Below, piece after piece: positions 1 to 13,817 of a DNA stretch of 26,181 bases. The translations under genes and the position numbers were made by a program. Under the pieces are notes generated by a model, which saw only the letters and a program-made list of their open reading frames with translations, was not told the origin of the DNA and did no database searches. Source of the stretch: a virus (lineage: Duplodnaviria > Heunggongvirae > Uroviricota > Caudoviricetes); the IMG/VR virus record IMGVR_UViG_2778261575_000004. One strand, written 5' to 3'. The stretch's first letter is position 1; every line of letters starts with the position of its first letter.

Positions 1-1077
<1,077 letters not shown>

Positions 1078-1094
1078 TTACATATTGTTTTCTT

Positions 1095-1114
1095 ATTGTG
1101 ATCAAAAACAACAA
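1095..1114 (-). promoter_or_regulatory. Candidate cAMP-CRP site of the csiD promoter
   Basis: TGTGA-N6-ACAAC (ttgTGTGAtcaaaaACAACaa) about 120 bp upstream of the csiD start codon in a very AT-rich region. csiD is known to be sigmaS- and CRP-dependent; the exact site cannot be verified from sequence alone. Confidence 0.3.
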
Positions 1115-1511
1115 ATTAATAACAAATAATGTGAGGGATAAGAATTGGGTTGAAAGGAAATGAATAATTAAAACAATATATTAAGTGTGCTTATACTCTT
1201 TTTCGAACTGGTGGCATTTGTTTAAATGCTATTTAAACTGCTTTTTCAGAGTTCAACTTACTGAGTTCCGTGTCGACTAATGTGAGTAAGATCAATCGCA
1301 TCCAACCTATGTTACTTGATGGAATCGATAACAATATTAATGAATATACAGATTCCGGGAAGGCTGGCTATGGGGGCAAATTATTCTCTTTCTGGCAACG
1401 GGTAAATAACAGTGACCATTTGTCGAGAAGCTGATACTGAGCTGAGGGATACTGTATATGTCTGGACTGTAATTGGATGAATTCTATTCAGGGCGGGTCA
1501 GGACCAATAAA

Positions 1512-1537
1512 AAAGCCCGCATCAGCGGGCTTTAATG
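1512..1537 (-). terminator. Rho-independent terminator-like hairpin downstream of the tmRNA-like att repeat
   Basis: Stem AGCCCGC / GCGGGCT with 4-nt loop (1514-1531); on the minus strand it is followed by a TTTTTT run. Confidence 0.5.
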
Positions 1538-1640
1538 TCATAGGGAGTCGCGACTCCGTTGCGTATCCTTTTTTGTCTCCTCACCGTCTGGTCGGTGTCC
1601 TGCTGAGACTTATAACTTCCTGTTTTTGTTGGTGTAGTCC

Positions 1641-1686
1641 TTACACCGTCCAATCATGATTGGTGGAGCTGGCGGGAGTTGAACCC
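1641..1686 (-). other. Prophage attachment-site repeat: duplicated 3' end of tmRNA (ssrA), about 46 nt
   Basis: Reverse complement reads ATGTAGGAATTTCGGACGCGGGTTCAACTCCCGCCAGCTCCACCA, the 3'-terminal acceptor/T-arm of enterobacterial tmRNA. Similarity stops abruptly at 1687 and no tmRNA body follows. Lies next to the P2-type integrase. Confidence 0.6.
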
Positions 1687-1798
1687 GCGTCCGAAATTCC
1701 TACATACCATTTTCACTATAACAAAAACATTAACTTGCGTTTAAAATCATCAAGTTAGTATTATCTTATGTTTGTCCGTTTTACTCATTTTTAATGCT

Positions 1799-1818
1799 CT
1801 GTCGCCAATCTGTCGCCA
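1799..1818. repeat. Tandem direct repeat CTGTCGCCA x2 between att core and cargo gene
   Basis: ctgtcgcca at 1799-1807 and again at 1810-1818, about 115 bp from the att core. Possible integrase arm-type or accessory-factor site; not verifiable here. Confidence 0.25.
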
Positions 1819-1820
1819 CA

Positions 1821-2471
1821 TTATCCGCTGCTTGAGTTGAAATCTGTGGGTTTACGGAGATTAGATCTTATGGTTTTTTCAGCGATACGAATAGTCGAAA
1901 ATTTATGCAGGTTCATCAGTGCTATACAAATCCCAAGTGCAAAAAAGTAGCTGGACATTCCTAATCTTTGCATATCAGTAAGTTTATTAATTTTCTCTAA
2001 AATATGTTGGGTTACTAATCCTTCGTATACAAAAGGTATGGAAGTTATAAAACCGCCAATAAAATAGAAAGTTAAGCTTATCAGCTTTATAGATTTTCTA
2101 TATATCCAAAAGCGATATCTTTTTTTTGTCCATTTAAATATTTGTTTTTCACTACTAATAGAAATTAGTTTTTGACACTTGCTATAGTTATCAATGTCAT
2201 TAACTGGATCGTTAACACCTAAAAGAATCTCTCTCTGTTCTGGAGTTAGGTTCTTATCTTTTGTTATTGCAGCAATACCATAATTATATGCAACTTTCTT
2301 GATTTTGGGATCTTCAGTATTCTTATATAGATTGTATGCAAACTCGCTAATGTTTTTGCGCGAGTTGAAAATCTTATCTTTGGGGAAAACCCAGCCGGAT
2401 CTTACCGCGAGCATCTGTATGATCGGGGTAATTATCGCGACAGAATACTTAATTATCTCGTTTATGTTCAT
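1821..2471 (-). CDS. Hypothetical membrane protein, AT-rich cargo gene between att and int
   Basis: 216-aa ORF, visibly much more AT-rich than flanking phage genes. Two strongly hydrophobic segments near the C-terminus (LISLTFYFIGGFITSIPFVY; LGMSSYFFALGICIALMNL) and one near the N-terminus. No recognisable catalytic motif. Confidence 0.55.
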   Translation of the reverse strand: MNINEIIKYSVAIITPIIQMLAVRSGWVFPKDKIFNSRKNISEFAYNLYKNTEDPKIKKVAYNYGIAAITKDKNLTPEQREILLGVNDPVNDIDNYSKCQKLISISSEKQIFKWTKKRYRFWIYRKSIKLISLTFYFIGGFITSIPFVYEGLVTQHILEKINKLTDMQRLGMSSYFFALGICIALMNLHKFSTIRIAEKTIRSNLRKPTDFNSSSG

Positions 2472-2485
2472 GATCCATTGTTTAC

Positions 2486-3502
2486 TTAAATTAAGTTATA
2501 AAGAGGGTTTTTTGTTACTGCATCCTCCAGGTGGTCTGGAGAGAAGTGTGCATAAATCATCGTCATTTTAATATCTGAGTGCCCTAAAATATCACGTAAA
2601 ACGAGTATGTTCCCACCGTTCATCATAAAATGGCTGGCAAATGTATGGCGCAGGACGTGGGTGCATTGGCCTTCCGGTAGTTCAATACCGGCCCGTTTTA
2701 CCGCCCGTTCAAAGGCTTTTCTGCATGGTGTGAATAATTTCCCTCGGTTTTTGGGTAGCTCGTTGTACAGATCCTGAGATATCGGTACGGTACGGTTTTT
2801 TTTACCCTTGGTCTTTGTATAGGTAATCCGGTATTTCGATAGTTGATGGCCCTGCAGGTTTTCAGCTTCACTCCAACGAGCACCGGTTGCTAGGCATATT
2901 TTTGCAATCATTAGCAGACTGGGGCTTTGAGAATCAGCACAGGCATCCAGCAGACGTTTAATTTCCTCCGGGGTTAGGAACGCCAGTTCACCCTCCGTAA
3001 TTTTAAATGTTGGAAGCCCGGCAAGCGGGTTGGGGGCTGACCAGTGGCCCAGCTTTTTCAGTGTACCAAAAACAGATGATAGGTTGCGCTGTTCAAGGTT
3101 TACCGTGCGGGGCTTAACGGGTGACATGAACGAGCCGTCTTCATTTTGGACCTCCCCCTTTAATCTGGCTTCCCGATATTTTGTGAAATCACCTGCTGTC
3201 AGCTCAGAGGCGATGGGATCGCCTAGACCATTACAGATAATTCTAAGTTTCGCCATCAGGCGTTTGGGGTCTGCGAGTGTTTGACCATATAGGGAATACC
3301 ACTGCTCAATCACTTCTGATAATCGCCGCCGATCTTCCTTCTCACCAAGCCATGGCTTTTTGTTTACTTCGTTCATGGTGAAGTTTTCGAATGCTATGGC
3401 TTCGCCTTTCGTGGCAAATTGCTTACGCACGCGCTTGCCATTGCGTCCATTGGGATAGCACTCACACAACCATTTTCCGTTCGGCTGTTTTCTGATGGTC
3501 AT
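2486..3502 (-). CDS. int: Tyrosine integrase, P2/186 Int family
   Basis: 338-aa ORF. N-terminal GRNGKR motif and C-terminal catalytic region (LATGARWSEA...HVLRHTFASHFMMNGGNILVLRDILGHSDIKMTMIYAH) typical of P2-type integrases. Adjacent to the att repeat and to the cI stop codon. Confidence 0.95.
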   Translation of the reverse strand: MTIRKQPNGKWLCECYPNGRNGKRVRKQFATKGEAIAFENFTMNEVNKKPWLGEKEDRRRLSEVIEQWYSLYGQTLADPKRLMAKLRIICNGLGDPIASELTAGDFTKYREARLKGEVQNEDGSFMSPVKPRTVNLEQRNLSSVFGTLKKLGHWSAPNPLAGLPTFKITEGELAFLTPEEIKRLLDACADSQSPSLLMIAKICLATGARWSEAENLQGHQLSKYRITYTKTKGKKNRTVPISQDLYNELPKNRGKLFTPCRKAFERAVKRAGIELPEGQCTHVLRHTFASHFMMNGGNILVLRDILGHSDIKMTMIYAHFSPDHLEDAVTKNPLYNLI

Positions 3503-3503
3503 A

Positions 3504-4136
3504 TCAAAGGCTCTTAATGATTTTCAGTGCACGGCCTACTACCTCAATGTCATCCAGGCCACACTCAAACGATGAATCATCCTGATGCACTACTAATCTG
3601 TTTCCCGGGAGTCGAGTCAATTTAACAATGCTTTTTATCCCGTCGATATCGACTAACCACATACCATTCACTGGTGGTGTTTGGTTGCGATCTATTAAAT
3701 AAGAATCACCAGAAGTAGTCACCAGCAGTAGGTTGCTTGAGTCTGAGGGGAGTATGCTGCTATCAATGATTGCTTTTCCAGCATCGACCAATAAACCACC
3801 GTTGAGAGTCGCCTTGTCAATTTCAGGAGATACTAGTTCAGAAAGAGGTACAACCTTGCTGGAGTTCACGGAATTGATATTTTTTTTGGGTTCAATGTTT
3901 GGACCTGGCTCCCCCTGTCCGGTGGTTAGCCACAGTAAAGAAACTCCTGTTTCCAAGGCGCACTGAATCACCCACTCTGCAGGAAAACTATCTCTTAAGT
4001 ATCTGTTTGCCATGGTGCTTTTTGATGCGCCTAAGTGATCGCAAAGTTGCTGTCTGGACTTGAAATCATAGGCTGCCATTAGTCTATGGATAGCTTCTCT
4101 TCCCCCTGTATTCTCTCCAGCCTTTACCTGTATCAT
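3504..4136 (-). CDS. cI: CI-type immunity repressor (186 CI-like, N-terminal HTH)
   Basis: 210-aa ORF immediately upstream of int on the same strand (stop at 3504, int start at 3502). Position and divergent arrangement with the apl/cII operon match the 186 lysogenic operon. Confidence 0.8.
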   Translation of the reverse strand: MIQVKAGENTGGREAIHRLMAAYDFKSRQQLCDHLGASKSTMANRYLRDSFPAEWVIQCALETGVSLLWLTTGQGEPGPNIEPKKNINSVNSSKVVPLSELVSPEIDKATLNGGLLVDAGKAIIDSSILPSDSSNLLLVTTSGDSYLIDRNQTPPVNGMWLVDIDGIKSIVKLTRLPGNRLVVHQDDSSFECGLDDIEVVGRALKIIKSL

Positions 4137-4148
4137 TTTTTAATCCTG

Positions 4149-4177
4149 TTGACGTATCAAATATTGGATCGTAGTAT
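4149..4177 (+). promoter_or_regulatory. Candidate rightward early lytic promoter (pR-like)
   Basis: TTGACG (4149-4154), 17-bp spacer, TAGTAT (4172-4177), about 80 bp upstream of the apl start; overlapped by the operator-like repeats. Confidence 0.5.
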
Positions 4178-4200
4178 CTCGATGTATCAAATATTGAATC
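4154..4200. repeat. Operator-like 17-bp direct repeats in the cI-apl intergenic region
   Basis: GTATCAAATATTGGATC (4154-4170) and GTATCAAATATTGAATC (4184-4200), one mismatch, each with internal near-dyad symmetry; straddle the candidate -10 element. Confidence 0.45.
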
Positions 4201-4255
4201 AATTAAAACGAGATAAAACGACGTAAACCAAACCTTAATCGGGAGATACTGCACT

Positions 4256-4498
4256 ATGAGCACTGATATTTCAATTCGTGTACCAAAAGAGATGGCTACG
4301 CCTGCAGAGTTCGCGGAATGGGAAGGTATCTCCCGCGGCTCCGTGTATCAAAAAATTCACCATGGTCAGCTTGCTAAATACATGGTCAAGAAAGAAAAAA
4401 ATAAAGGCCGCGTAAACCTTCGTTATCTGATGTACAAAACTGATCAGGTCCGTGAATCCCTCGGTCATTCCAACTTCCGCGTCATTGTTGGTAAGTAA
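4256..4498 (+). CDS. apl: Apl/Cox-like small HTH excisionase and lytic regulator
   Basis: 80-aa ORF, first gene of the rightward operon opposite cI; size and position match 186 Apl. Confidence 0.7.
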   Translation: MSTDISIRVPKEMATPAEFAEWEGISRGSVYQKIHHGQLAKYMVKKEKNKGRVNLRYLMYKTDQVRESLGHSNFRVIVGK

Positions 4499-4530
4499 GT
4501 TCAATTATGGGAACTTTCTAAGGGGGCACC

Positions 4531-5040
4531 ATGTTTGATTACAAGATTTCCAAACATCCGCATTTCGATGAAGCCTGTAGGGCTTTTGCACTGCGTCACA
4601 ACCTGGTGCAACTGGCAGAACGTGCAGGCATGAATGTACAGATTCTGCGGAACAAGCTGAACCCAGCTCAGCCTCATTTATTAACCGCACCAGAAATCTG
4701 GCTGCTTACCGATCTGACTGAAGATTCAACGCTGGTAGATGGTTTTCTGGCACAGATTCATTGTCTGCCATGTGTACCGATTAATGAGGTGGCAAAAGAG
4801 AAACTGCCACATTACGTCATGAGTGCAACCGCAGAGATCGGGCGTGTTGCTGCAGGTGCGGTATCTGGCGATGTAAAAACCTGTGCCGGTCGTCGTGATG
4901 CTATCAGCAGCATTAACTCTGTAACACGACTGATGGCGCTGGCGGCTGTTTCATTGCAGGCCCGTTTACAGGCTAATCCTGCGATGGCGAGTGCAGTTGA
5001 TACCGTGACTGGCCTCGGTGCTTCATTCGGTTTGCTGTGA
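4531..5040 (+). CDS. cII: CII-like lysogeny establishment regulator
   Basis: 169-aa ORF with strong RBS (AAGGGGG), second gene of the early operon; size and position match 186 CII. Confidence 0.65.
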
Positions 5041-5047
5041 GGTGCTT

Positions 5048-5344
5048 ATGCTGACGAAAGAACCATCATTTGCATCGCTGCTGGTAAAACAAAGCCCGGC
5101 AATGCACTACGGTCACGGCTGGATCATGGGTGAGGATGGTAAACGCTGGCATCCGTGCCGTTCACAAGATGAATTGCTGTCTGAATTGACCACGGGGAAA
5201 CGGAGAAAGTCAAAATGTATGCAGCGGAAAGTGAAGTGGTTTATCAGTTTCGTTACAGAGGGGAGAGTTATTCAGTACCTGAAGATGATTTGCTCTGTTG
5301 TTATCCGTCGTTGTCGGGCGATGGCAGTTACTTTTTCACGCTAA
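5048..5344 (+). CDS. Hypothetical early protein (Fil-like position); 3' end uncertain
   Basis: ORF starting at ATG 5048 after GAGGTG. Its last ~130 nt overlap, in another frame, the better-supported ORF starting at 5215, so the true C-terminus or the reading frame is uncertain. Confidence 0.35.
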   Translation: MLTKEPSFASLLVKQSPAMHYGHGWIMGEDGKRWHPCRSQDELLSELTTGKRRKSKCMQRKVKWFISFVTEGRVIQYLKMICSVVIRRCRAMAVTFSR

Positions 5345-5439
5345 AGGATGGGACGTTTTTACGGGGAGAGCAGGTTAAAGAAACGATACGAAAAAATGTA
5401 TCTCCTCTCGAACGTTACCGTAAGAACAAAGAACAATAG
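5215..5439 (+). CDS. Hypothetical small early protein
   Basis: 74-aa ORF with good RBS (ACGGAGAAAGTCAAAATG) in the early operon. Confidence 0.5.
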   Translation: MYAAESEVVYQFRYRGESYSVPEDDLLCCYPSLSGDGSYFFTLKDGTFLRGEQVKETIRKNVSPLERYRKNKEQ

Positions 5440-5461
5440 TTGCGTTTTGGGGATATGAATT

Positions 5462-5803
5462 ATGGCAATTAATGGCGCTGCAGCGACTGTTCCATTAAGC
5501 CCCGGTGAACGCCTGAATGGACTTAATCATATTGCGGAGTTAAGGGCGAAAGTATTTGGCCTTAATATTGAGTCAGAGCTTGAGCGGTTTATTAAAGATA
5601 TGCGTGATCCACGGGATATCAATAATGAACAAAATAAACGGGCACTGGCTGCCATATTCTTTATGGCAAAAATTCCAGCTGAACGTCATAGCATCAGCAT
5701 TAATGAGCTGACCACTGACGAAAAGCGGGAGTTGATTAAAGCAATGAATCATTTTCGTGCAGTGGTGAGCTTATTTCCCAGACGGCTAACCATGCCGAAT
5801 TAA
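5462..5803 (+). CDS. Hypothetical early protein
   Basis: 113-aa ORF in operon context. Confidence 0.55.
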   Translation: MAINGAAATVPLSPGERLNGLNHIAELRAKVFGLNIESELERFIKDMRDPRDINNEQNKRALAAIFFMAKIPAERHSISINELTTDEKRELIKAMNHFRAVVSLFPRRLTMPN

Positions 5804-5870
5804 CCAACTAATGAAATTAATGGCGTAAACCCGCCGGGCATCCCTTTATCTAAATTCAGGAGAATTGATT

Positions 5871-6104
5871 ATGCGTAATATTGAAACCCTCTCGACTAAA
5901 ACCGGACCGGATGACGCAGGGCTTAATATTTTACTGACAGAGGCTCGTCTGGAAGAACGCCGGGCAAGGGCTGAAGCAATGGCAGCTCGCCTTGATAGCC
6001 TGGCGTGTCATATCACATCCCGCCAGCTAAACCACGTCGAAGCGGCAGAACTGCTGCGTGTAACTGCTGAAGCAATCCAGAACGAAGCGCAGGAGATCCA
6101 CTAA
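5871..6104 (+). CDS. Hypothetical small early protein
   Basis: ATG at 5871 preceded by CAGGAG at 8-nt spacing (the ORF track begins at an in-frame TTG at 5865); stop overlaps the start of the next gene. Confidence 0.55.
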   Translation: MRNIETLSTKTGPDDAGLNILLTEARLEERRARAEAMAARLDSLACHITSRQLNHVEAAELLRVTAEAIQNEAQEIH

Positions 6105-6331
6105 TGGCTGATGCAATGGATCTCGTACAGCAGCGCGTTGAAGAAGAACGCCAGCGCCATATTCGTGCTGCCCGTGCCAAAACACCGGGCGTGTCTCGCG
6201 TGCTTTGTATTGAATGTGAAGCGCCAATTCCGCCAGCACGACGCCGCGCCATTCCGGGAGTGCAGCTTTGCATTACCTGCCAGGAAATCGTAGAGCTGAA
6301 AGGCAAACATTACAACGGAGGTGCTGTATGA
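6104..6331 (+). CDS. TraR/DksA-family C4 zinc-finger protein (P2 orf82-like)
   Basis: 75 aa with CIECEAP-x17-CITCQ (CxxC-N17-CxxC), the TraR/DksA zinc-finger arrangement; located in the early operon before A. Confidence 0.8.
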
Positions 6332-6630
6332 CAGGGGCTGTGCGTATCCATCAATTAAAAATTGCACCTAAGTATTTCAATGCTGTGGTTGCAGGTCAAA
6401 AGACGGTTGAACTTCGTAAAGACGATCGTGGCTATAAAGTTGGTGATGTTCTTTCTCTTTGCGAATGGAAGCATGGCGTATTTACGGGTAGGGAATGGGC
6501 CGCGGTTATCTCTCATGTGCTTCCGGTTAATGACGTCATGGCAGTTTCAGAACAATGGGTGATGCTATCAATTCGCTCATTAACCCCATTAGAAGCTTTA
6601 GGATATGTTATTGCAGGAGGTGCTGTATGA
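6328..6630 (+). CDS. ASCH/PUA-like DUF3850-family protein
   Basis: 100-aa ORF from ATG 6328 (RBS GGAGG); N-terminal [34 protein letters not shown] matches my recollection of the DUF3850 signature; translationally coupled (ATGA overlaps) on both sides. Confidence 0.65.
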
Positions 6631-7484
6631 GCACCATCCTGAAATGGGCGGGAAATAAAACCGCAATTATGTCTGAACTGAAAAAACACCTTCCTGCTGG
6701 CCCGCGACTGGTTGAACCTTTCGCGGGTTCCTGTGCTGTGATGATGGAGACGGATTATCCAAGCTATCTGGTTGCGGATATTAATCCTGATTTAATCAAC
6801 CTCTATAAAAAGGTTGCCGCTGATTGTGAATCGTTTATATCTCGCGCCAGAGTTTTATTTAAGGAAGCAAACAGGGAGGTGGCTTATTACAACATAAGGC
6901 AGGAGTTTAATTACTCAAATGAAATTACTGATTTCATGAAAGCGGTATATTTCCTGTATCTCAATCGTCACGGTTACCGTGGTTTATGTCGCTATAACAA
7001 GAGCGGGCATTTCAACATTCCCTACGGTAATTATAAAAATCCGTATTTCCCAGAAAAAGAAATTCGCGCATTTGCAGAAAAAGCCCAGCGGGCAACGTTT
7101 ATCTGCGCCAGCTTTGATGAAACGCTGGCGATGTTGAAGGCGGGGGATGTGGTGTATTGCGATCCGCCGTATGACGGCACGTTTTCCGGTTATCACACTG
7201 ACGGCTTCACTGAAGATGACCAGTATCACCTGGCATCCGTTCTTGAACATCGGTCATCAGAAGGACATCCGGTCATTGTTTCTAACAGTGACACATCCCT
7301 GATCCGTTCGCTGTATCGCAATTTTACTCACCACTACATCAAGGCAAAACGCAGCATCGGTGTGGCAGCTGGCGAGGGTAAATCAGCAACAGAAATCATT
7401 GCTGTTTCCGGGCCGCGCTGCTGGGTGGGATTTGATTATTCGCGTGGCGTGGATAGTTCTGCCGTGTACGGAGTACGTGCATGA
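6627..7484 (+). CDS. dam: DNA adenine methyltransferase (Dam-type, GATC-class N6-adenine MTase)
   Basis: Start ATG 6627 after AGGAGG. N-terminal KWAGNK and FAGSCAV motifs (AdoMet binding) and a DPPY catalytic motif (VYCDPPY). Confidence 0.9.
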
Positions 7485-9895
7485 GTCATGCCGATATGAA
7501 CAACTGCTGCGGCTTTAACGAAGCTGCCGCATCGTTCTCATGGAACAGCCCGAAAAAGGCCATTAACCCTTATCTGGACCCGGCGGAAGTTGCGCCGGTT
7601 TCTACGCTTTCAAACCTGATCACTCTGTACGCTGCCGATAACGAGCAGGAACAGCTGCGCCGTGAGGCGCTGAGTGATCAGGTCTGGGAGCGTTATTTCT
7701 TTAATGAATCCCGTGATCCTGTCCAGCGCGAAATGGAGCAGGATAAGCTCATTAGTCGGGCAAAGCTGGCGCATGAGCAGCAGCGTTTTAACCCGGACAT
7801 GGTCATTCTGGCAGACGTCAGCGCCCAGCCCTCCCATATCAGCAAGCCGCTGATGCAACGTATTGAATACTTCAGCAGCCTTGGCAGGCCAAAGGCTTAT
7901 TCCCGCTATTTGCGTGAGACGATTAAGCCATGTCTGGAACGGCTGGAGCATGTACGCGACAGTCAGCTATCCACATCTTTTCGCTTTATGGCAAGCCATG
8001 AAGGGCTGGACGGCCTGCTGATTCTGCCTGAAATGAGTCAGGATCAGGTGAAACGCCTGTCCACCCTTGTTGCTGCGCATATGAGCATGTGCCTTGATGC
8101 AGCTTGTGGCGATTTGTATGCCACCGATGACGTTAAGCCAGAAGAAATCCGCAAGACATGGGAAAAGGTGGCAGCAGAAACCCTGCGACTGGATGTCATA
8201 CCGCCTGCGTTTGAGCAACTCCGCCGGAAAAGAAACCGCCGTAAACCCGTGCCATATGAACTCATTCCGGGTTCGCTGGCGCGTATGTTGTGCGCCGATT
8301 GGTGGTACCGGAAATTATGGAAGATGCGTTGCGAATGGCGGGAAGAGCAGTTGCGTGCTGTTTGCCTGGTCAGCAAAAAAGCATCTCCCTATGTCAGCTA
8401 TGAAGCCGTGATGCATAAACGTGAGCAGCGCCGTAAGTCGCTGGAGTTTTTCCGTTCTCATGAACTGGTGAACGAAGACGGCGACACGCTGGACATGGAG
8501 GATGTGGTAAACGCCAGCAGCAGCAACCCTGCGCATCGCCGCAATGAGATGATGGCCTGTGTTAAAGGTCTGGAGCTTATCGCGGAAATGCGCGGTGACT
8601 GCGCCGTTTTCTACACCATCACCTGTCCGTCACGTTTCCATTCCACGCTAAATAACGGCAGGCCCAACCCGACCTGGACAAATACGACGGTAAGACAAAG
8701 CAGTGATTATCTGGTCGGCATGTTTGCTGCATTTCGTAAGGCGATGCACAAAGCCGGATTGCGCTGGTATGGCGTGCGGGTGGCTGAGCCGCATCATGAC
8801 GGTACAGTTCACTGGCACCTGTTGTGTTTTATGCGCAAAAAAGATCGCCGCACCATTACTGCTTTGTTGCGTAAGTTTGCCATTCGTGAAGACCGCGAGG
8901 AGCTGGGTAATAACACGGGACCACGCTTTAAGTCTGAGCTGATAAACCCGCGCAAAGGTACGCCAACAAGCTACATCGCGAAATACATCAGTAAGAACAT
9001 TGACGGGCGTGGTCTGGCTGGCGAGATCAGCAAGGAAACGGGTAAATCCCTGCGTGATAACGCTGAATACGTTAATGCCTGGGCGTCTCTGCATCGTGTT
9101 CAGCAATTCCGCTTCTTTGGCATTCCGGGGCGTCAGGCTTACCGTGAACTGCGATTGCTGGCTGGTCAGGCGGCAAGGCAACAGGGGGACAAAAAAGCAG
9201 GTGCGCCGGTACTGGATAACCCGCGCCTTGATGCAATCCTGGCTGCTGCTGATGCTGGTTGTTTTGCCACCTACATCATGAAGCAGGGCGGCGTACTGGT
9301 TCCCCGCAAATATCACCTCATCAGAACTGCTTATGAAATCAACGAAGAACCGACCGCATATGGCGATCACGGTATTCGTATTTATGGCATCTGGTCACCC
9401 ATTGCAGAGGGCAAGATCTGCACTCATGCGGTGAAGTGGAAAATGGTTCGTAAGGCCGTTGACGTTCAGGAGGCGGCAGCCGACCAGGGCGCTTGCGCCC
9501 CTTGGACTCGTGGCAATAACTGTCCCCTTGCTGAAAATTTGCACCAACAAGGGAAAGACAAATCAACTGATGGGGATACCAGAACGGATATCACCCGTAT
9601 GAATGACAAGGAGTTGCACGATTACCTGCACAGTATGAGCAAAAAAGAGCGCCGGGAACTGACAGCAAGATTACGCCTGGTGAAACCGAAACGGCGTAAA
9701 GACTACAAACAGCGAATTACAGAGTATCAGCGTCAGCAGCTTGTCTATGAACTGAAGTCCAGAGGATTTGATGGCAGCGAGAAAGAAGTCGATTTGCTCC
9801 TTCGCGGTGGCAGTATTCCATCAGGAGCAGGCCTGCGTATCTTCTATCGGAACCAGCGTCTGAAGGAAGATGATAAGTGGCGGAACCTGTATTAA
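7481..9895 (+). CDS. A: Replication initiation endonuclease, P2 gpA family (rolling-circle initiator)
   Basis: 804-aa ORF, ATGA-coupled to dam; contains the HxH metal-binding motif (TVHWHLLCF) and the conserved tyrosine-containing region ([14 protein letters not shown]) typical of gpA-type nickases. Confidence 0.9.
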
Positions 9896-9987
9896 TTACG
9901 CGGGTTAACAATTCGTGCTCTTAATAATACCAGGCATATCAGGCTGATGAACGTAAAAAAACGTTTTACATCAGTAATATTATTATA

Positions 9988-10007
9988 TACTGCAAATATA
10001 AACAGTG
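9988..10007 (+). promoter_or_regulatory. LexA box (SOS operator) upstream of the tum-like gene
   Basis: TACTGCAAATATAAACAGTG matches the CTG-N10-CAG LexA consensus (taCTGTatatatatACAGta). A second, weaker overlapping box lies at 10003-10022 (CAGTGATTATATATACAGTG). About 40 bp upstream of ATG 10048. Confidence 0.6.
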
Positions 10008-10047
10008 ATTATATATACAGTGTTGCTTTGGTGTCATAGGAGGAAAG

Positions 10048-10236
10048 ATGCAGGACTATTTTTTGGAGTCTTTGAAGCTCCAGCGCATTGATTTTTTTCT
10101 TAAGCTTGTAGCGGCTAGTGAGTGTAGTGATGAAGAGAAGGGGCTGGCCCTGCAGTGGGTTTCTGAACTGACAGATGAACTCATGGCAAAAATCAGAACC
10201 CACGAATACAACCGCTCAATGGATGTCATCAGTTGA
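10048..10236 (+). CDS. Tum-like antirepressor, N-terminal portion (possibly one gene with the next ORF)
   Basis: 62-aa ORF with RBS GGAGGAAAG directly downstream of the LexA box. Overlaps, in a different frame, the 5' extension of the following DinI-like ORF. Confidence 0.45.
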   Translation: MQDYFLESLKLQRIDFFLKLVAASECSDEEKGLALQWVSELTDELMAKIRTHEYNRSMDVIS

Positions 10237-10246
10237 GGTGGCTTTT

Positions 10247-10480
10247 ATGCGCATTGAAATAATGATCGATAAAGAGCAGAAGATTAGCCAGTCTACCCTG
10301 GACGCCCTTGAATCCGAGCTTTACCGCAATCTGCGCCCCCTGTATCCCAAAACGGTAATTCGTATCCGCAAAGGTAGCTCTAACGGTGTGGAACTGACCG
10401 GACTGCAACTGGACGAAGAAAGAAAACAAGTGATGAAAATTATGCAGAAGGTGTGGGAAGACGACAGCTGGCTGCATTAG
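10247..10480 (+). CDS. DinI-family protein (Tum C-terminal domain-like)
   Basis: 77 aa beginning MRIEIMIDKEQ...RIRKGSSNGVELTGLQLDEERKQVMKIMQKVWEDDSWLH, which resembles DinI (MRIEVTIAKT...ETWESADDWF). Confidence 0.75.
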   Translation: MRIEIMIDKEQKISQSTLDALESELYRNLRPLYPKTVIRIRKGSSNGVELTGLQLDEERKQVMKIMQKVWEDDSWLH

Positions 10481-10549
10481 AGAACGTTGCGGATGATAAA
10501 ACTAGCTTTTACCATCTGCAAGGCTGAACAACGATTGTAGCGAGGTGTT

Positions 10550-10599
10550 AGGTGGTTCAAAAGTAAAGCGGTTATTTTGCCCGTAAAAGTGAACCACCT
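10550..10599. repeat. Perfect 10-bp inverted repeat (AGGTGGTTCA ... TGAACCACCT) with 30-nt spacer between convergent genes
   Basis: Arms at 10550-10559 and 10590-10599, followed by a T-rich stretch; lies between the DinI-like gene (+) and the 246-aa hotspot gene (-). Confidence 0.4.
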
Positions 10600-10608
10600 G
10601 TATCTTGA

Positions 10609-11349
10609 TCAGTTTTCTTTGAATTTTTCACTTAATCGTTTCGTCAATACTTCGACAGATTCTTTGCGACCGGAGAACAAGTCATTGACGACGTACTCCA
10701 TAATCTCAAAAGCATCCTCAATGTCTTTGACTTTTACTTCATCGTAGGTATGGCTTCCGGCATTTCCTAAAAATTTAATTGCCATAAGAGGTCTTGAAAA
10801 CGATCCGTATAATTCAGGTAGCATCCCTAAACGGTGGTGTAGAGTTATGCGTTTGCCATTATCATTACGTTCAGCTACATCCATAGCGGTTAGCATTCTT
10901 TCAACTGAAATTCGAATTAGGTTTGCTGCTGCGCCAGGCTGTATTAGGAAAATGGAAAATGAGGCTTCAAGCGGTTCGGTAATTTCTTCTGGGCATTTTT
11001 CAGGTATTTCGAAAGGATGCAGTGATGGGTAAAAGGTGAAAGGTCTGTGCCATTGATAGTACTCAATATCATTTCTTTCTTCATCCCAACCTTGTTCCCA
11101 TCCACTCTTACCAGTACAGGCCACAACTTCACCACATTGCATTCTTGAACAGCGGGCCATGCAACTGAAAATAGATGAATCCATTTCTAGTTCAAACCAA
11201 TCTTCACTGCGGAATTTTCGGGTATCATGTGTGTCATACGAGACGAAACTTTCTTTAATGATCTGTAGGGTTTTCTGATTGCAGTTAGGGCAGGGCCACT
11301 CAACCTGCATATCGTGGAAAAACGCACCAGAGAGCTTGTGCACAGTCAT
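10609..11349 (-). CDS. Hypothetical protein: N-terminal Cys-rich zinc-ribbon-like region plus C-terminal DUF4145-like helical domain; candidate defence/exclusion gene at the P2 tin/old position
   Basis: 246-aa ORF with RBS GAGGAA, AT-rich. Cys pairs CPNC (20-23) and C63/C67/C72/C78. C-terminal LIRISVERMLTAM...AIKFLGNAGSHT...VKDIEDAFEIMEYVVNDLF resembles, from memory, the GN.a.H-containing DUF4145 domain. Sits between A/tum and cos, where P2 carries tin and old. Confidence 0.6.
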   Translation of the reverse strand: MTVHKLSGAFFHDMQVEWPCPNCNQKTLQIIKESFVSYDTHDTRKFRSEDWFELEMDSSIFSCMARCSRMQCGEVVACTGKSGWEQGWDEERNDIEYYQWHRPFTFYPSLHPFEIPEKCPEEITEPLEASFSIFLIQPGAAANLIRISVERMLTAMDVAERNDNGKRITLHHRLGMLPELYGSFSRPLMAIKFLGNAGSHTYDEVKVKDIEDAFEIMEYVVNDLFSGRKESVEVLTKRLSEKFKEN

Positions 11350-11550
11350 TCTTTGTGTTCCTCATTTTTATGATTGGTAGGGATTGTATCTTCATACACG
11401 ATTACAGTTGCATTAAAGATAAGCCATAGCAAGCTACTGGAAAAGAGACGAAACAGTTGGGCATATCAGATGTTTTTTCTTAAGGTAAGTTGTTGTGCAT
11501 GCCTATACTGCATGAGATTGCATGATCGTTTGAGGATCGTTATTGCTAAG

Positions 11551-11575
11551 GCCCACCAGAACTGGCGGGCTTTTG
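11551..11575 (+). other. Imperfect hairpin followed by TTTTG in the cos-proximal region
   Basis: GCCCACC-agaac-TGGCGGGC then TTTTGCG; one mismatch in the stem. Could be a terminator or a packaging-related structure. Confidence 0.25.
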
Positions 11576-11619
11576 CGTAGAGCATGCAGGTGCATGAAAA
11601 CCACTACATAAAGCGGGCA

Positions 11620-11638
11620 GGCGTGGCGGGGATACGAG
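11620..11638. other. cos-like site (P2/186-type cohesive end sequence)
   Basis: GGCGTGGCGGGGA matches the first 13 nt of the 19-nt cohesive end as I recall it for 186 (GGCGTGGCGGGGAAAGCAT) and P2 (GGCGAGGCGGGGAAAGCAC); followed by a GCGCGC-rich segment. Lies between the A-side hotspot and portal gene Q, as expected for a P2-like prophage. Confidence 0.4.
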
Positions 11639-11910
11639 CGCGCGCCGCGGGTTGAAATAGTAAAATTCACTTAGCCTCAGGCCCGCTGATGGTTTTCTTC
11701 TGAAAGGGAGGGCGCGTTTTTGTGCAATCTTGTTTGAAGGGATTTAAATAAATGTTGAATGTGTTCCGGAGTTGGCTGTAGATTTAGTGTTCTGTCACAA
11801 GTTGCAGTGATAGGTAGCAAACCTTTAAAAGGTTCTGCTATTGTTTCATTAAAGATTTATAGTCTTTGTCCGAAAATGACATTAAAGTAGTCGCCTTTAA
11901 TGTCGTAAGC

Positions 11911-12465
11911 ATGAAGGACAGAGAATTGAACTTAGAGCAGATTGCCAGTCAAAGTATAAGTAACCTTCAGTTTCTCCTCGATACTTTGAAGATGCCGTTG
12001 GCTGTTGGTCCAATCAGTGATGAAGACTATGTGATCCTGACCACAGGATACGCTCAGCTAGAATGGGATTATGGTTTTTCTCGGTTTGGCAATCGAAGTG
12101 ATAAGTTTGAATTTTGTTTGAAGCTCCTTGCGGGGCCACTTAGGCATATCCCTTCTGGCGCAGCTATGTGCACCTTTGACGAGGACGCTGGAGTCATAGA
12201 GATCCATTTTGTGGAATCTTTTGTGAAAGATGATGACGTAGAGCACCCTCTTTACGGCAACATGTTCATGGTTACATTGTGGGCGGTATATCTTTTTGGT
12301 AGCGCGGTTGGGTGTCAAGAGATTCGGATCCCTGAAGCCCTGAATCAAAAAGTTGCTGACCACTATAAAAAATTTGGTTTTAAAGGTGATATAAGCTTGC
12401 TTTCGGCACCTTTTGCTACAATAACTGATGTAGTAAGACGCTACATTACTTCTAAGAAACAGTAG
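11911..12465 (+). CDS. Hypothetical protein, cargo between cos and Q (possible degenerate GNAT-like C-terminus)
   Basis: 184 aa from ATG 11911 (the ORF track gives 199 aa from TTG 11866). C-terminal ...ALNQKVADHYKKFGFKGD is reminiscent of the GNAT motif-B signature, but no clear motif A is seen; assignment weak. Confidence 0.5.
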   Translation: MKDRELNLEQIASQSISNLQFLLDTLKMPLAVGPISDEDYVILTTGYAQLEWDYGFSRFGNRSDKFEFCLKLLAGPLRHIPSGAAMCTFDEDAGVIEIHFVESFVKDDDVEHPLYGNMFMVTLWAVYLFGSAVGCQEIRIPEALNQKVADHYKKFGFKGDISLLSAPFATITDVVRRYITSKKQ

Positions 12466-12544
12466 ATAAATTTTTGCGCAGTGCTACAATGCTGCGCCAA
12501 ACATCCACCACCGGATGATGAGGCTTGACCTCTAAGAGGAAATC

Positions 12545-12724
12545 ATGACTATGACGCATAGTGACAAGAAAGCTCAGAAGCATTACTCAGTATCTGATGT
12601 TTTCAGCCGTATGGGCGTCGCGATGGAAGAACTACTTCAAGCGGCCCCACATATGATGCAGGACTGCAAATTTGAAGGAAATGAGCTGCATGGTAAGCTC
12701 AAAGAAAAGCAGAAAGCTGCTTAA
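12545..12724 (+). CDS. Small hypothetical protein (59 aa)
   Basis: Hand-translated ORF not in the supplied track: ATG 12545 preceded by AAGAGGA at 7 nt, stop TAA 12722-12724, immediately followed by a strong terminator. Confidence 0.35.
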   Translation: MTMTHSDKKAQKHYSVSDVFSRMGVAMEELLQAAPHMMQDCKFEGNELHGKLKEKQKAA

Positions 12725-12747
12725 TTCCATGAAATGCGTTTTGCATG

Positions 12748-12775
12748 AAGCCCGGTAATACCGGGCTTTTTTATG
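12748..12775 (+). terminator. Rho-independent terminator
   Basis: Perfect palindrome AAGCCCGGTA-A-TACCGGGCTT followed by TTTTTTAT; lies between the small ORF and the 3' end of Q. Confidence 0.7.
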
Positions 12776-12779
12776 CTTG

Positions 12780-13817
12780 CTAGTCAGTATTAAGCTCATA
12801 TGGATTGAATCGGACTACCTCTTCACCAAGCCATTCATTTAGCTCCAGCAATCGCTTTTGTAACGGTACTATTTCGTTTCTTGTGAAGACGCGACTGGCC
12901 TTTTCCACATCCCCAAAACCGCCGGTATTGTTGGGAATGATACCCATCATTTGCGGCGGCACACGATGCGCCGCCATCATGTCGTCCCGGCTCACGTTCT
13001 TGATATTCAGGAACTCATCCTTCGCCGCCACTTCTGACAACGGGATAATCTGAAGCCCATCCTTTTTGCCGTTAGGCGAGTACATAAACAGGTTACGGAA
13101 GTTACCAGGACCTTTGGCACTTTTCATTGCGTTGCGGAGGTTGTTCACATCCTCCTGGTTCTGCGCGGCGTCGGTCATGTACATGATGAAGCCCGCATGG
13201 CTGCCGTTAATGTAATACTTCCGGCGGAACAGCGTGGCGGACTCGTTGAGCAGGGCTGACGGAATGGCAGAAAGATAACCGGGCAGGCCGTAGATCTCCT
13301 GGTTGATGTCCGGCTCCATCAGATGAAAAATGCTGCCTTTCGTGAACTGATACGGCTGGGTTGTCATACTGTATTGCACAAACCAGTAGGTATCCAGGTC
13401 TAACCCGCGTCGGGTGTATTTTGCCAGAGCAGGCTCAAGGGCTATAACTTCACCGAAGCGGTTCGTGCGTTTCTCCAGGTAGGCGTTACCAAAAACCAGA
13501 AAGTCCTGTACAAAACGCGAAAAAGCCTGCTGGCTGAGCAGCGGGTGAGGGATGTAGGTGCTGGTCAGAATGTTGCACTTCACTGCAATCGGTGAGCTAT
13601 GATGTATGGCGGCGCGGAAGGTTCGCGCCAGTCCGTCGAAACTCACAGGCAGCTCATACCAACGATCCATCTGTACGCATTCCACATAGTCCAGCAGTTC
13701 GCGGCGGTCCAGAACAGGAACGGGATCACCGAAGCTGAATGCTTCGGCTGAAGTCTGGCTTTTATGCTGGATCTGTTTCGTCGACGCAGCGCGGTTCTTC
13801 TTACTCTTTCCCATCAA
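12780..13817 (-). CDS. Q: Portal protein (P2 gpQ family)
   Basis: 345-aa ORF, first of the leftward Q-P late operon; size and position as in P2; 4-nt overlap with P. Confidence 0.88.
   Translation of the reverse strand: MMGKSKKNRAASTKQIQHKSQTSAEAFSFGDPVPVLDRRELLDYVECVQMDRWYELPVSFDGLARTFRAAIHHSSPIAVKCNILTSTYIPHPLLSQQAFSRFVQDFLVFGNAYLEKRTNRFGEVIALEPALAKYTRRGLDLDTYWFVQYSMTTQPYQFTKGSIFHLMEPDINQEIYGLPGYLSAIPSALLNESATLFRRKYYINGSHAGFIMYMTDAAQNQEDVNNLRNAMKSAKGPGNFRNLFMYSPNGKKDGLQIIPLSEVAAKDEFLNIKNVSRDDMMAAHRVPPQMMGIIPNNTGGFGDVEKASRVFTRNEIVPLQKRLLELNEWLGEEVVRFNPYELNTD

What the first reader, a model, noticed from the sequence alone, without database searches (positions are those of the whole stretch)
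1691..2485. AT-rich membrane-protein cargo gene between att and int
The 216-aa ORF (1821-2471, minus strand) is clearly more AT-rich than the phage backbone and sits at the att-int junction, a classical moron position in P2-like prophages. It has hydrophobic helices at both ends and no recognisable enzymatic motif. Small membrane proteins here are often superinfection-exclusion or abortive-infection effectors, or lysogenic-conversion factors. Tandem CTGTCGCCA repeats (1799-1818) lie just past its stop codon.
Basis: inference. Interest (0 to 1): 0.6.

Follow-up and report, generated by a model that had tools for sequence, protein, structure and literature searches.

The report
Unknown membrane-protein cargo gene beside prophage integrase
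A dispensable, AT-rich gene for a small inner-membrane protein of unknown function sits in a known swap-slot between the integrase and the attachment site of a 186-like E. coli prophage; it is a reasonable but untested candidate for a prophage-encoded protection factor against other phages.

Summary
A 216-aa ORF (1821-2471, minus strand; GC 0.33 against 0.51 for the prophage) lies between the ssrA-derived att core (about 1660-1707) and int (2486-3502) of a 186-type prophage in E. coli.

It is accessory cargo. Among 57 viral contigs with a 92-97% identical integrase, 15 have an empty slot, where the int stop is followed 4 nt later by the arm repeats. The other 42 carry one of several unrelated AT-rich cassettes, one of them a known dCTP-deaminase defence gene. 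Only 2 carry this family.

The CTGTCGCCA repeats do not belong to the gene. They are invariant in all relatives and match the published 186-type Int arm-site consensus.

The protein belongs to a small unnamed family (PHROG 21256; about 90 clusters at 50% identity) and is under purifying selection (dN/dS 0.06). The predicted layout is an N-out helix, a conserved cytoplasmic helical domain of about 100 aa, a two-helix membrane hairpin and a basic tail. Relatives nearly always follow cI-int, or cI alone, in the lysogenic operon.

No Pfam, NCBIfam, PADLOC, PDB or fold match was found, and there is no homology to P22 SieA or SieB. An anti-phage role (entry block or abortive infection) is plausible but only inferred. 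The find is a new member of a known kind, of moderate interest.

The parts
1512..1533 (-). Terminator-like hairpin in host DNA just beyond the att core. It is probably the native ssrA terminator and the likely end of a cI-int-ORF read-through transcript.
   Evidence: The scan finds 9 pairs, 6 of them GC, followed by a T run. Its role is inferred. The host flank 1-1707 is 99.2% identical to E. coli LF82.
1660..1707 (-). att core: the displaced 3' end of ssrA (tmRNA) at the int-proximal prophage junction.
   Evidence: Partial Rfam tmRNA match at 1661-1753(-). Positions 1660-1705 are 100% identical to the real ssrA 3' end in LR-33. No whole tmRNA is found. Homology with SCU-172, which has a different left flank, starts at 1661.
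1708..1818 (.). attP arm, conserved among ssrA-integrating 186-like prophages whatever cargo they carry. Homology between prophages stops abruptly at 1818.
   Evidence: Alignment A3. The distance from arm repeats to core is a constant 118 bp in the loci. Window 1500-1818 matches many E. coli genomes at 88-98%.
1799..1818 (+). Two direct CTGTCGCCA repeats, 11 bp apart: probable 186-type Int arm-binding sites.
   Evidence: They are the only perfect copies in the window and are invariant in all six aligned arms. They are present 4 nt after the int stop in the 15 empty-slot loci. They match the published 186-type arm consensus tgccGCCActt (PMC3448106). Binding was not tested.
1821..2471 (-). Cargo gene: 216-aa predicted three-helix inner-membrane protein with a cytoplasmic helical domain of about 100 aa. 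It belongs to PHROG 21256, function unknown.
   Evidence: The N-terminal helix is conserved in homologues, so the 216-aa start is preferred to the PGAP 197-aa start.
2472..2485 (-). 14-nt spacer between the int stop and the cargo start, with no promoter-like or terminator-like site. This implies co-transcription, and possibly translational coupling, with int.
   Evidence: In other cassettes the cargo gene starts -19 to +14 nt from the int stop.
2486..3502 (-). Tyrosine integrase, 338 aa. Its last codons, after EDAVTKNP, co-vary with the cargo class, so the left border of the cassette lies inside the int 3' end.
   Evidence: Pfam Int_N E 1.4e-28 and Phage_integrase E 5e-25. Junction comparison.
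3504..4136 (-). 186-type CI repressor, 1 nt upstream of int. It is the first gene of the putative cI-int-cargo lysogenic operon.
   Evidence: Pfam Phage_CI_repr E 5.5e-31 and Phage_CI_C E 9e-28. Layout.
4137..4255 (.). Switch region between cI and the apl-like gene (4256-4498). A pR-like site lies at 4149-4177(+). pL was not located with confidence.
   Evidence: The scan finds TTGACG-17-TAGTAT on the + strand. The face-to-face pR/pL arrangement is known for 186 (PMC7498355). Assignment here is by analogy.

Best explanation
**What it is.** The ORF is a dispensable accessory cassette (a moron). It was inserted between the 3' end of int and the Int arm sites of attP in an ssrA-integrating 186-like prophage of E. 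coli.

**The protein.** It is a small inner-membrane protein with this predicted layout:
- N terminus outside;
- TM1 at about 9-25;
- a conserved, basic, all-helical cytoplasmic domain at about 27-127, with a short beta hairpin;
- a TM2-loop-TM3 hairpin at about 128-192, whose short periplasmic loop is the most variable part;
- a conserved basic cytoplasmic tail (STIxIAEKTIKSNR).

**Expression.** It has no promoter of its own and starts 14 nt after int, so it is most likely made in the lysogen as the third cistron of the cI-int operon.

**Favoured function.** I favour prophage-encoded protection against other phages acting at the inner membrane. Within that, a SieA-like block of genome entry is somewhat more likely (about 0.3) than a membrane-damaging abortive-infection effector (about 0.15).

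**Status of each step.**
- Shown: cargo status, gene turnover, family membership, purifying selection.
- Predicted: membrane topology.
- Inferred: lysogenic expression and anti-phage function.
For: **Cargo status.**
- Of 57 IMG/VR loci with an int 92-97% identical, 15 have the arm repeats 4 nt after the int stop. The other 42 carry unrelated cassettes of 0.65-2.7 kb with GC 0.30-0.37. In nearly all of them the cargo gene is co-oriented with int and starts -19 to +14 nt from its stop.
- Four different cargo proteins occur at this slot in six complete E. coli genomes.
- Only 2 of 5,426 complete E. coli genomes have this gene.

**Hotspot.**
- One cassette in this slot is a PADLOC dCTP-deaminase defence gene (model 'dCTPase'), E 2e-146. 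Another is a DCD-like plus ThyX pair.
- The literature lists int-att of P2-like phages as a minor defence hotspot (PMC13586616).

**A real gene.**
- dN/dS is 0.06 against the Cronobacter orthologue.
- The family has about 90 clusters of 200-230 aa.

**Lysogenic operon.**
- Relatives at 51-82% identity follow int directly in the E. coli/Salmonella cluster, Cronobacter and Klebsiella prophages at ssrA.
- A 33% relative follows cI directly, with no int between.
- No terminator-like or promoter-like site lies between cI and the ORF.

**Topology.**
- Three family-conserved hydrophobic segments. K+R density is 0.22-0.31 on the proposed cytoplasmic flanks and 0.07-0.09 on the outside.
- The AF2 model has pLDDT 81.

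**Use to the host without the phage.** Orphan chromosomal copies are fixed in K. quasipneumoniae, on more than 1,000 contigs, with no phage genes or att remnant nearby.
Against: - No match to any PADLOC-DB v2 model, for the ORF or for 40 family members.
- No Pfam or NCBIfam family.
- hhalign against P22 SieA and SieB gives a probability of about 1%.
- Most cassettes in the slot are themselves of unknown function, so guilt by association is weak.
- The bulk of the protein is cytoplasmic and periplasmic exposure is small. This is not what a classical receptor or entry blocker needs, although SieA is similar in this respect.
- Expression from pL was not demonstrated.
- No isolated phage in INPHARED encodes it.
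Confidence: 0.45

Rival explanations
1. Abortive-infection effector. The cytoplasmic domain senses a phage product or an infection cue, and the TM hairpin then oligomerises and depolarises the membrane, killing the cell before progeny are made. This is a sub-case of the anti-phage reading but a different mechanism from an entry block.
For: The conserved part of the protein is the cytoplasmic domain while the TM segments vary, as expected for a sensor joined to a generic membrane effector. Another cassette of the same slot (WP_000344474.1) weakly matches a PADLOC '2TM effector' model, E 8e-5. Rousset et al. note that membrane proteins in known systems are usually taken to be suicide effectors (PMC9122126).
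Against: The ORF and its family have no match to any 2TM/4TM effector model. It is a single small protein with no recognisable sensor or partner gene. Constitutive expression from the lysogenic operon would need tight auto-inhibition.
Confidence: 0.15
2. Lysogenic-conversion or host-fitness factor unrelated to phages. It would be a membrane-anchored protein that modifies envelope physiology, stress tolerance or a host membrane complex.
For: Orphan copies sit between ordinary metabolic genes and are fixed in K. quasipneumoniae and in another enterobacterial contig. This shows a use independent of the prophage. There is no defence signature.
Against: The slot is a swap site whose identifiable cassettes are anti-phage or nucleotide-depletion genes, and it is a described defence hotspot. 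No similarity to any known conversion factor was found.
Confidence: 0.25
3. Phage-lifecycle or satellite-interaction accessory. Examples are modulation of integration or excision, of lysis timing, or of exploitation by P4-like satellites.
For: The gene is physically fused to the int operon and abuts attP. In strain SCU-172 a P4-like satellite is integrated in tandem right next to this prophage end.
Against: Fifteen of 57 related phages lack any gene here and the others carry unrelated genes, so nothing in the slot is needed for the life cycle. A membrane location is odd for a recombination accessory. Orphan chromosomal copies work without a phage.
Confidence: 0.1
4. Spurious or decaying ORF in AT-rich junk DNA.
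For: AT-rich DNA produces long ORFs by chance.
Against: dN/dS is 0.06. The family has about 90 clusters of conserved length and motifs. The PHROG hit has E 2.7e-69. The AF2 pLDDT is 81.
Confidence: 0.02

Closest known systems
P22 SieA (superinfection exclusion, inner membrane)
   Same: A small prophage-expressed inner-membrane protein with three predicted TM helices, no enzymatic domain and a conserved motif on the cytoplasmic side. A single gene is sufficient for exclusion (PMC10883804).
   Different: No sequence relationship: hhalign probability 1.3%. The SieA motif FxRYPxEAxxFNK is absent. This protein has a cytoplasmic domain of about 100 aa between TM1 and TM2. SieA has its own promoter near the ejection-protein genes, not the cI-int operon.
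Lambda RexB / P22 SieB (abortive-infection membrane proteins expressed in the lysogen; RexB with the repressor gene)
   Same: A membrane protein proposed here to be made in the lysogen from the immunity operon. The comparison with RexB rests on my own knowledge.
   Different: RexB needs RexA, and no partner gene is present here. There is no homology to SieB: hhalign probability 0.7%. Architecture and size differ.
P2 morons old, tin and fun(Z), and the gpA-gpQ defence hotspot of P2-like phages
   Same: AT-rich, swappable single-gene or few-gene cassettes in P2-like prophages that protect the lysogen (PMC9122126; PMC13586616).
   Different: A different slot: int-att holds only about 3% of the defence systems found in P2-like phages. 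Here the cassette is fused to the lysogenic cI-int operon. The protein is unrelated to any of these.
dCTP-deaminase defence gene found in the same int-att slot (locus L110)
   Same: Occupies the identical position between the int stop and the arm repeats in a phage with a 93% identical integrase.
   Different: A 585-aa cytoplasmic enzyme on the opposite strand. It is unrelated in sequence and mechanism.
PHROG 21256
   Same: The ORF is a full-length member: E 2.7e-69, residues 5-207 on profile positions 7-209 of 222.
   Different: The PHROG has no annotated function, so membership adds no mechanism.

Membership tests
Accessory cargo (moron) of the int-attP slot in P2/186-like prophages | Lies between the integrase gene and the attP arm and core. 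| tested here: met
   ORF 1821-2471 lies between the arm repeats (1799-1818) and int (2486-3502).
Accessory cargo (moron) of the int-attP slot in P2/186-like prophages | Present or absent, and replaced by unrelated genes, among phages with near-identical flanks. | tested here: met
   Fifteen empty and 42 occupied loci with at least 6 unrelated cassette types, at int identity 92-97%. Four cargo types in six complete E. coli genomes.
Accessory cargo (moron) of the int-attP slot in P2/186-like prophages | Composition deviates from the phage backbone. | tested here: met
   GC 0.33 against 0.51. All cassettes but one have GC 0.30-0.37; the exception (L067, 0.44) carries a transposase-like ORF.
Known anti-phage defence systems (PADLOC-DB v2.0) | Significant match to a defence-protein HMM. 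| tested here: not met
   No family at E up to 10 for the ORF. Among 40 family members there is one chance-level hit, E 0.006.
P22 SieA superinfection-exclusion family | Sequence or profile homology, including the FxRYPxEAxxFNK motif. | tested here: not met
   hhalign probability 1.3%. The motif (PMC10883804) is not in the sequence.
P22 SieA superinfection-exclusion family | Inner-membrane protein that blocks DNA delivery. | not testable with these tools
   Only a predicted three-helix topology is available. Location and phenotype need experiments.
P22 SieB-type abortive infection | Sequence or profile homology. | tested here: not met
   hhalign probability 0.7%.
PHROG 21256 (unknown function) | Full-length HMM match. 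| tested here: met
   E 2.7e-69, 234 bits, residues 5-207.
186-type Int arm-binding sites (for the CTGTCGCCA repeats) | At least two direct repeats flanking the core that match the consensus tgccGCCActt, about one helical turn apart. | tested here: met
   CTGTCGCCA occurs twice, 11 bp apart. Variants CTGCCGCCA/TGTCGCCA occur in relatives. The consensus is from PMC3448106.
186-type Int arm-binding sites (for the CTGTCGCCA repeats) | Bound by the N-terminal domain of Int. | not testable with these tools
   Needs footprinting or EMSA.
Lysogenic (cI-int) operon member | Co-oriented with and adjacent to cI-int, with no intervening promoter or terminator. | tested here: met
   Gaps of 1 nt (cI-int) and 14 nt (int-ORF), with no minus-strand terminator-like site between 4136 and 1821. 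The same arrangement holds in relatives.
Lysogenic (cI-int) operon member | Transcribed from pL in the lysogen. | not testable with these tools
   Needs RNA-seq or 5'RACE of a lysogen.

The most novel reading that the evidence does not exclude
The ORF founds a new single-gene family of inner-membrane anti-phage proteins (exclusion or abortive infection) that is expressed as part of the repressor-integrase operon. The int-att slot of ssrA-integrating 186-like phages would then be a compact cassette site holding at least four large, wholly uncharacterised protein families (about 216, 350, 400 and 510 aa) that are all candidate defence genes.
Probability: 0.4. Interest if true: 0.6.

Novelty: new member of a known kind. 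Interest (0 to 1): 0.4.

Why it matters
If the protein protects lysogens, it would add a new, very small, single-gene membrane defence or exclusion family. It would also show that the little-studied int-att slot of 186-like phages is a cassette site wired directly into the lysogenic operon, so the cargo is on whenever the prophage is repressed.

The slot has sharply defined borders, the int 3' tail on one side and the Int arm sites on the other. It has a natural empty state and several abundant unknown cassette families. This makes it a convenient discovery and engineering site.

If the gene has no anti-phage effect, the orphan copy fixed in K. quasipneumoniae points to an unrecognised membrane function of use to the host.

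Tried and rejected
- ARAGORN found no tmRNA or tRNA. The att core was identified through Rfam and comparison with other genomes instead.
- tblastn against 50,697 isolated phage records found no match.
- The Pfam weak hits EF-G-binding_N (E 0.031, 15 bits against a cut-off of 27) and CT0912-like_C were dismissed as sub-threshold.
- The PDB sequence search with the family profile gave only beta-1 adrenergic receptor TM segments at E about 0.005. I judged these compositional, arising from hydrophobic helices.
- Foldseek against AFDB50 was unavailable.
- The search for related loci with the broad alignment A2 failed because no stretch was conserved enough. With A1, the genome collection gave only one locus, a truncated copy in Buttiauxella.
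- The antisense 90-aa ORF at 2299-2571(+) and the promoter-like site at 2159-2188(+) are treated as chance products of AT-rich DNA. The promoter scan found fewer sites than the shuffles did.
- The minus-strand promoter-like site at 4160-4132 overlaps the cI start codon, so I do not accept it as pL.
- Literature searches for WP_231253729 and phrog_21256 found no paper.
- dS was saturated for all but the closest pair, so region-wise dN/dS could not be used to look for diversifying selection.

Full report
**1. What is in the sequence**

The window begins with the E. coli gene glaH/csiD (1-978, minus strand). Its flank 1-1707 is 99.2% identical to strain LF82.

A displaced 3' fragment of ssrA follows at about 1660-1707, on the minus strand.
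- Rfam gives a partial tmRNA match at 1661-1753, 33.5 bits, below the gathering score of 47.
- ARAGORN finds no whole tmRNA.
- Positions 1660-1705 are identical to the real ssrA 3' end in strain LR-33.

To the right lie the remaining features:
- an AT-rich arm (1708-1818);
- the 216-aa ORF (1821-2471, minus strand);
- a 14-nt spacer;
- a tyrosine integrase (2486-3502);
- a 186-type CI repressor 1 nt upstream of int (3504-4136);
- rightward genes for an apl-like protein, CII/CP76, Fil, DUF5347, DUF2732, TraR, a Dam methylase and gpA, followed by head and tail genes.

So this is the int-proximal end of an ssrA-integrated 186-like prophage. The ORF has GC 0.33 and GC3 0.33, against 0.47 for int, 0.445 for cI and 0.51 for the prophage as a whole.

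**2. The CTGTCGCCA repeats belong to attP, not to the gene**

The two perfect copies (1799-1807 and 1810-1818) are the only perfect ones in the window.

I aligned the arm with five other E. coli prophages at the same site. Similarity runs from the core through the arm and stops exactly after the second repeat. The repeats are invariant even where the rest of the arm has diverged.

In 15 related viral contigs the int stop codon is followed after 4 nt by these same repeats (TGGCGrCA-nnn-TGGCGrCAG on the int strand). The core lies a constant 118 bp further on.

[quoted passage not shown] That fits. The repeats are therefore best read as Int arm-binding sites. Binding itself was not tested.

**3. 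The ORF is swappable cargo**

Only 2 of 5,426 complete E. coli genomes carry it, at 98-100% identity. One copy is in a 3.7-kb prophage remnant and the other in a full prophage 99.5% identical to the window.

Other E. coli prophages with 94-95% identical integrases at the same site carry unrelated hypothetical proteins of 309, 343 or 401 aa in the slot.

I fetched 80 IMG/VR loci with a 92-97% identical int. Both borders could be located in 57 of them:

| Slot content | Loci |
|---|---|
| Empty | 15 |
| Family of about 395-418 aa | 17 |
| TM-rich family of about 343-364 aa | 13 |
| Family of about 506-514 aa | 8 |
| This family | 2 |
| dCTP-deaminase defence gene | 1 |
| dCTP-deaminase-like protein plus ThyX | 1 |

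- The dCTP-deaminase gene matches PADLOC at E 2e-146.
- The DCD-like plus ThyX pair was identified with Pfam.
- Two of the 13 TM-rich loci are composite: one also carries a transposase-like ORF and the other carries fragments of a second family.
- All cassettes but one have GC 0.30-0.37; the composite locus L067, which carries the transposase-like ORF, has 0.44.
- In nearly all loci the cargo gene is co-oriented with int and starts -19 to +14 nt from its stop codon.
- The last few int codons, after EDAVTKNP, differ with the cassette. The left border therefore lies inside the int 3' end.

A 2026 survey lists the int-att interval as a minor defence hotspot holding about 3% of the systems found in P2-like phages (PMC13586616). 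The refutation condition 'core gene in all related phages' is clearly not met.

**4. The protein**

No Pfam, NCBIfam or PADLOC family matches. The ORF is a full-length member of PHROG 21256, function unknown (E 2.7e-69).

Homologues:
- A word-indexed search found 28 homologues in E. coli, Salmonella, Cronobacter and Klebsiella.
- An exhaustive profile search found 90 clusters at 50% identity with E up to 1e-3, and 45 with E up to 1e-10. Nearly all are 200-230 aa.
- All named members are called 'hypothetical protein', and no paper mentions them.

Against the Cronobacter orthologue, dN is 0.089 and dS 1.46, so dN/dS is 0.06. It is a real, constrained gene.

Homologues conserve the N-terminal hydrophobic helix. 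The 216-aa start is therefore preferable to the PGAP 197-aa start at M20.

Family-averaged hydropathy shows three hydrophobic segments, centred on residues 10-20, 134-145 and 174-185. Basic residues cluster at 26-45, 111-127 and 193-206 (0.17-0.31 K+R per residue). They are scarce at 1-8 and 151-170 (0.07-0.09). By the positive-inside rule this gives N-out, domain-in, loop-out, tail-in.

AlphaFold2 (pLDDT 81, pTM 0.63) predicts helices 3-24, 30-51, 55-70, 77-84 and 89-98, a hairpin at 103-114, then long helices 122-152 and 166-203.

Conservation is highest in the cytoplasmic domain and the tail. The recurring motifs are:
- SRKxISEF
- YGIAALTKDxNLTPEQRxILL
- DPVxDIDNYSKC
- FxWxKKRYRFW
- AEKTIKSNR

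Conservation is lowest in the periplasmic loop 151-170. No conserved catalytic-type residue set is evident.

The remaining comparisons gave nothing informative:
- BFVD returned nothing.
- The PDB sequence search gave only compositional TM hits.
- Profile comparison with P22 SieA and SieB was negative.

**5. Context of relatives**

Relatives at 51-82% identity sit directly after int in cI-int operons of ssrA-integrated 186-like prophages of Cronobacter and Klebsiella, and in metagenomic contigs. Their integrases are 93-94% identical, so the cargo is far more diverged than its neighbour.

A 33% relative follows cI directly, with no int between.

Two lineages are orphan single-gene AT-rich islets among metabolic genes, without att or int remnants. 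One of them is fixed in K. quasipneumoniae, on more than 1,000 contigs.

The recurrent theme is placement in the lysogenic transcription unit. No terminator-like or promoter-like site lies between cI and the ORF. A hairpin plus T run follows in host DNA at 1533-1512.

That pL drives cI and int in 186 is established knowledge. The face-to-face pR/pL layout is described in PMC7498355. Its extension to this ORF is inference.

**6. Interpretation**

- Shown: an accessory cassette in a defined, recombination-prone slot that encodes a conserved family.
- Predicted: a three-helix inner-membrane protein with a cytoplasmic helical domain.
- Inferred: production in the lysogen from the cI-int operon.

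I judge the following functions most likely:

| Function | Probability |
|---|---|
| Protection of the lysogen against other phages at the inner membrane | about 0.45 |
| - of which SieA-like block of genome delivery | about 0.3 |
| - of which abortive-infection membrane effector | about 0.15 |
| Phage-unrelated conversion or fitness factor, supported by the orphan copies | about 0.25 |
| Phage-lifecycle or satellite-related accessory | about 0.1 |
| Spurious ORF (effectively excluded) | about 0.02 |

**7. Novelty and score**

The kind of thing is known: a moron in the int-att hotspot of a P2/186-like prophage. The protein family is uncharacterised and unnamed. I classify it as a new member of a known kind.

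Interest is moderate, 0.4. A specialist would not be surprised. The slot's clean architecture, its natural empty state and its several abundant unknown cassette families make it a well-posed experimental target.

Noticed in passing
window 9900-12780: The main gpA-gpQ hotspot of the same prophage is also occupied. It holds a DinI-like gene (10175-10480, Pfam E 1.4e-22), a 246-aa zinc-ribbon plus DUF4145 protein on the minus strand (10609-11349) with a weak PADLOC PD-T7-4 match (E 1.6e-5), and a 199-aa protein with no family (11866-12465). GC is 0.40-0.45 against about 0.55 for the backbone.
   Followed up: partly
L002 (E. coli SCU-172) 552-5816: A P4-like satellite lies directly against the att end of a 99.5% identical prophage. 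It carries an integrase, a NACHT-domain protein in its own hotspot, psu, delta/ogr and a sid-like 'glycoprotein 3'. Satellite and helper are therefore integrated in tandem at ssrA.
   Followed up: no
L001 (E. coli LR-33) 6310-9370: The prophage is reduced to a remnant of about 3.7 kb (cargo ORF, int, cI, apl-like gene, truncated cII) next to ssrA. The cargo ORF, int and cI are still intact and 100% identical in protein.
   Followed up: no
window 2486-2530 and loci L040-L110: The C-terminal tail of Int, after the conserved EDAVTKNP, differs with each cassette class. Cassette exchange therefore appears to recombine inside the int 3' end and at the arm repeats.
   Followed up: partly
loci L040-L115 (IMG/VR): Three abundant, unrelated and uncharacterised cassette families occupy the same slot. 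One is a soluble protein of about 395-418 aa, one is about 343-364 aa with an N-terminal multi-TM region, and one is about 506-514 aa. None has a Pfam or PADLOC match at E up to 0.001, apart from one sub-threshold Pfam hit. WP_000344474.1 (309 aa, strain FDAARGOS_1287) weakly matches a PADLOC '2TM effector' model, E 8e-5.
   Followed up: partly
L072 about 5040-6650: One cassette is a two-gene unit: a dCTP-deaminase/dUTPase-like protein with a C-terminal TM helix, plus a ThyX thymidylate synthase (Pfam E 6e-15 and 3e-48). It may be a nucleotide-pool-manipulating system.
   Followed up: no
window 1821-2471 versus RefSeq annotation: PGAP annotates a 197-aa product (WP_231253729.1) starting at M20. 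The conserved N-terminal hydrophobic helix in all homologues argues for the 216-aa start, so the RefSeq model probably truncates TM1.
   Followed up: yes
L011 and L123, 6001-6624: Orphan chromosomal copies of the family form single-gene AT-rich islets in GC-rich surroundings (GC 0.45 and 0.37 against about 0.6). They have no int, arm or core remnants. The K. quasipneumoniae copy is seen on more than 1,000 contigs.
   Followed up: partly
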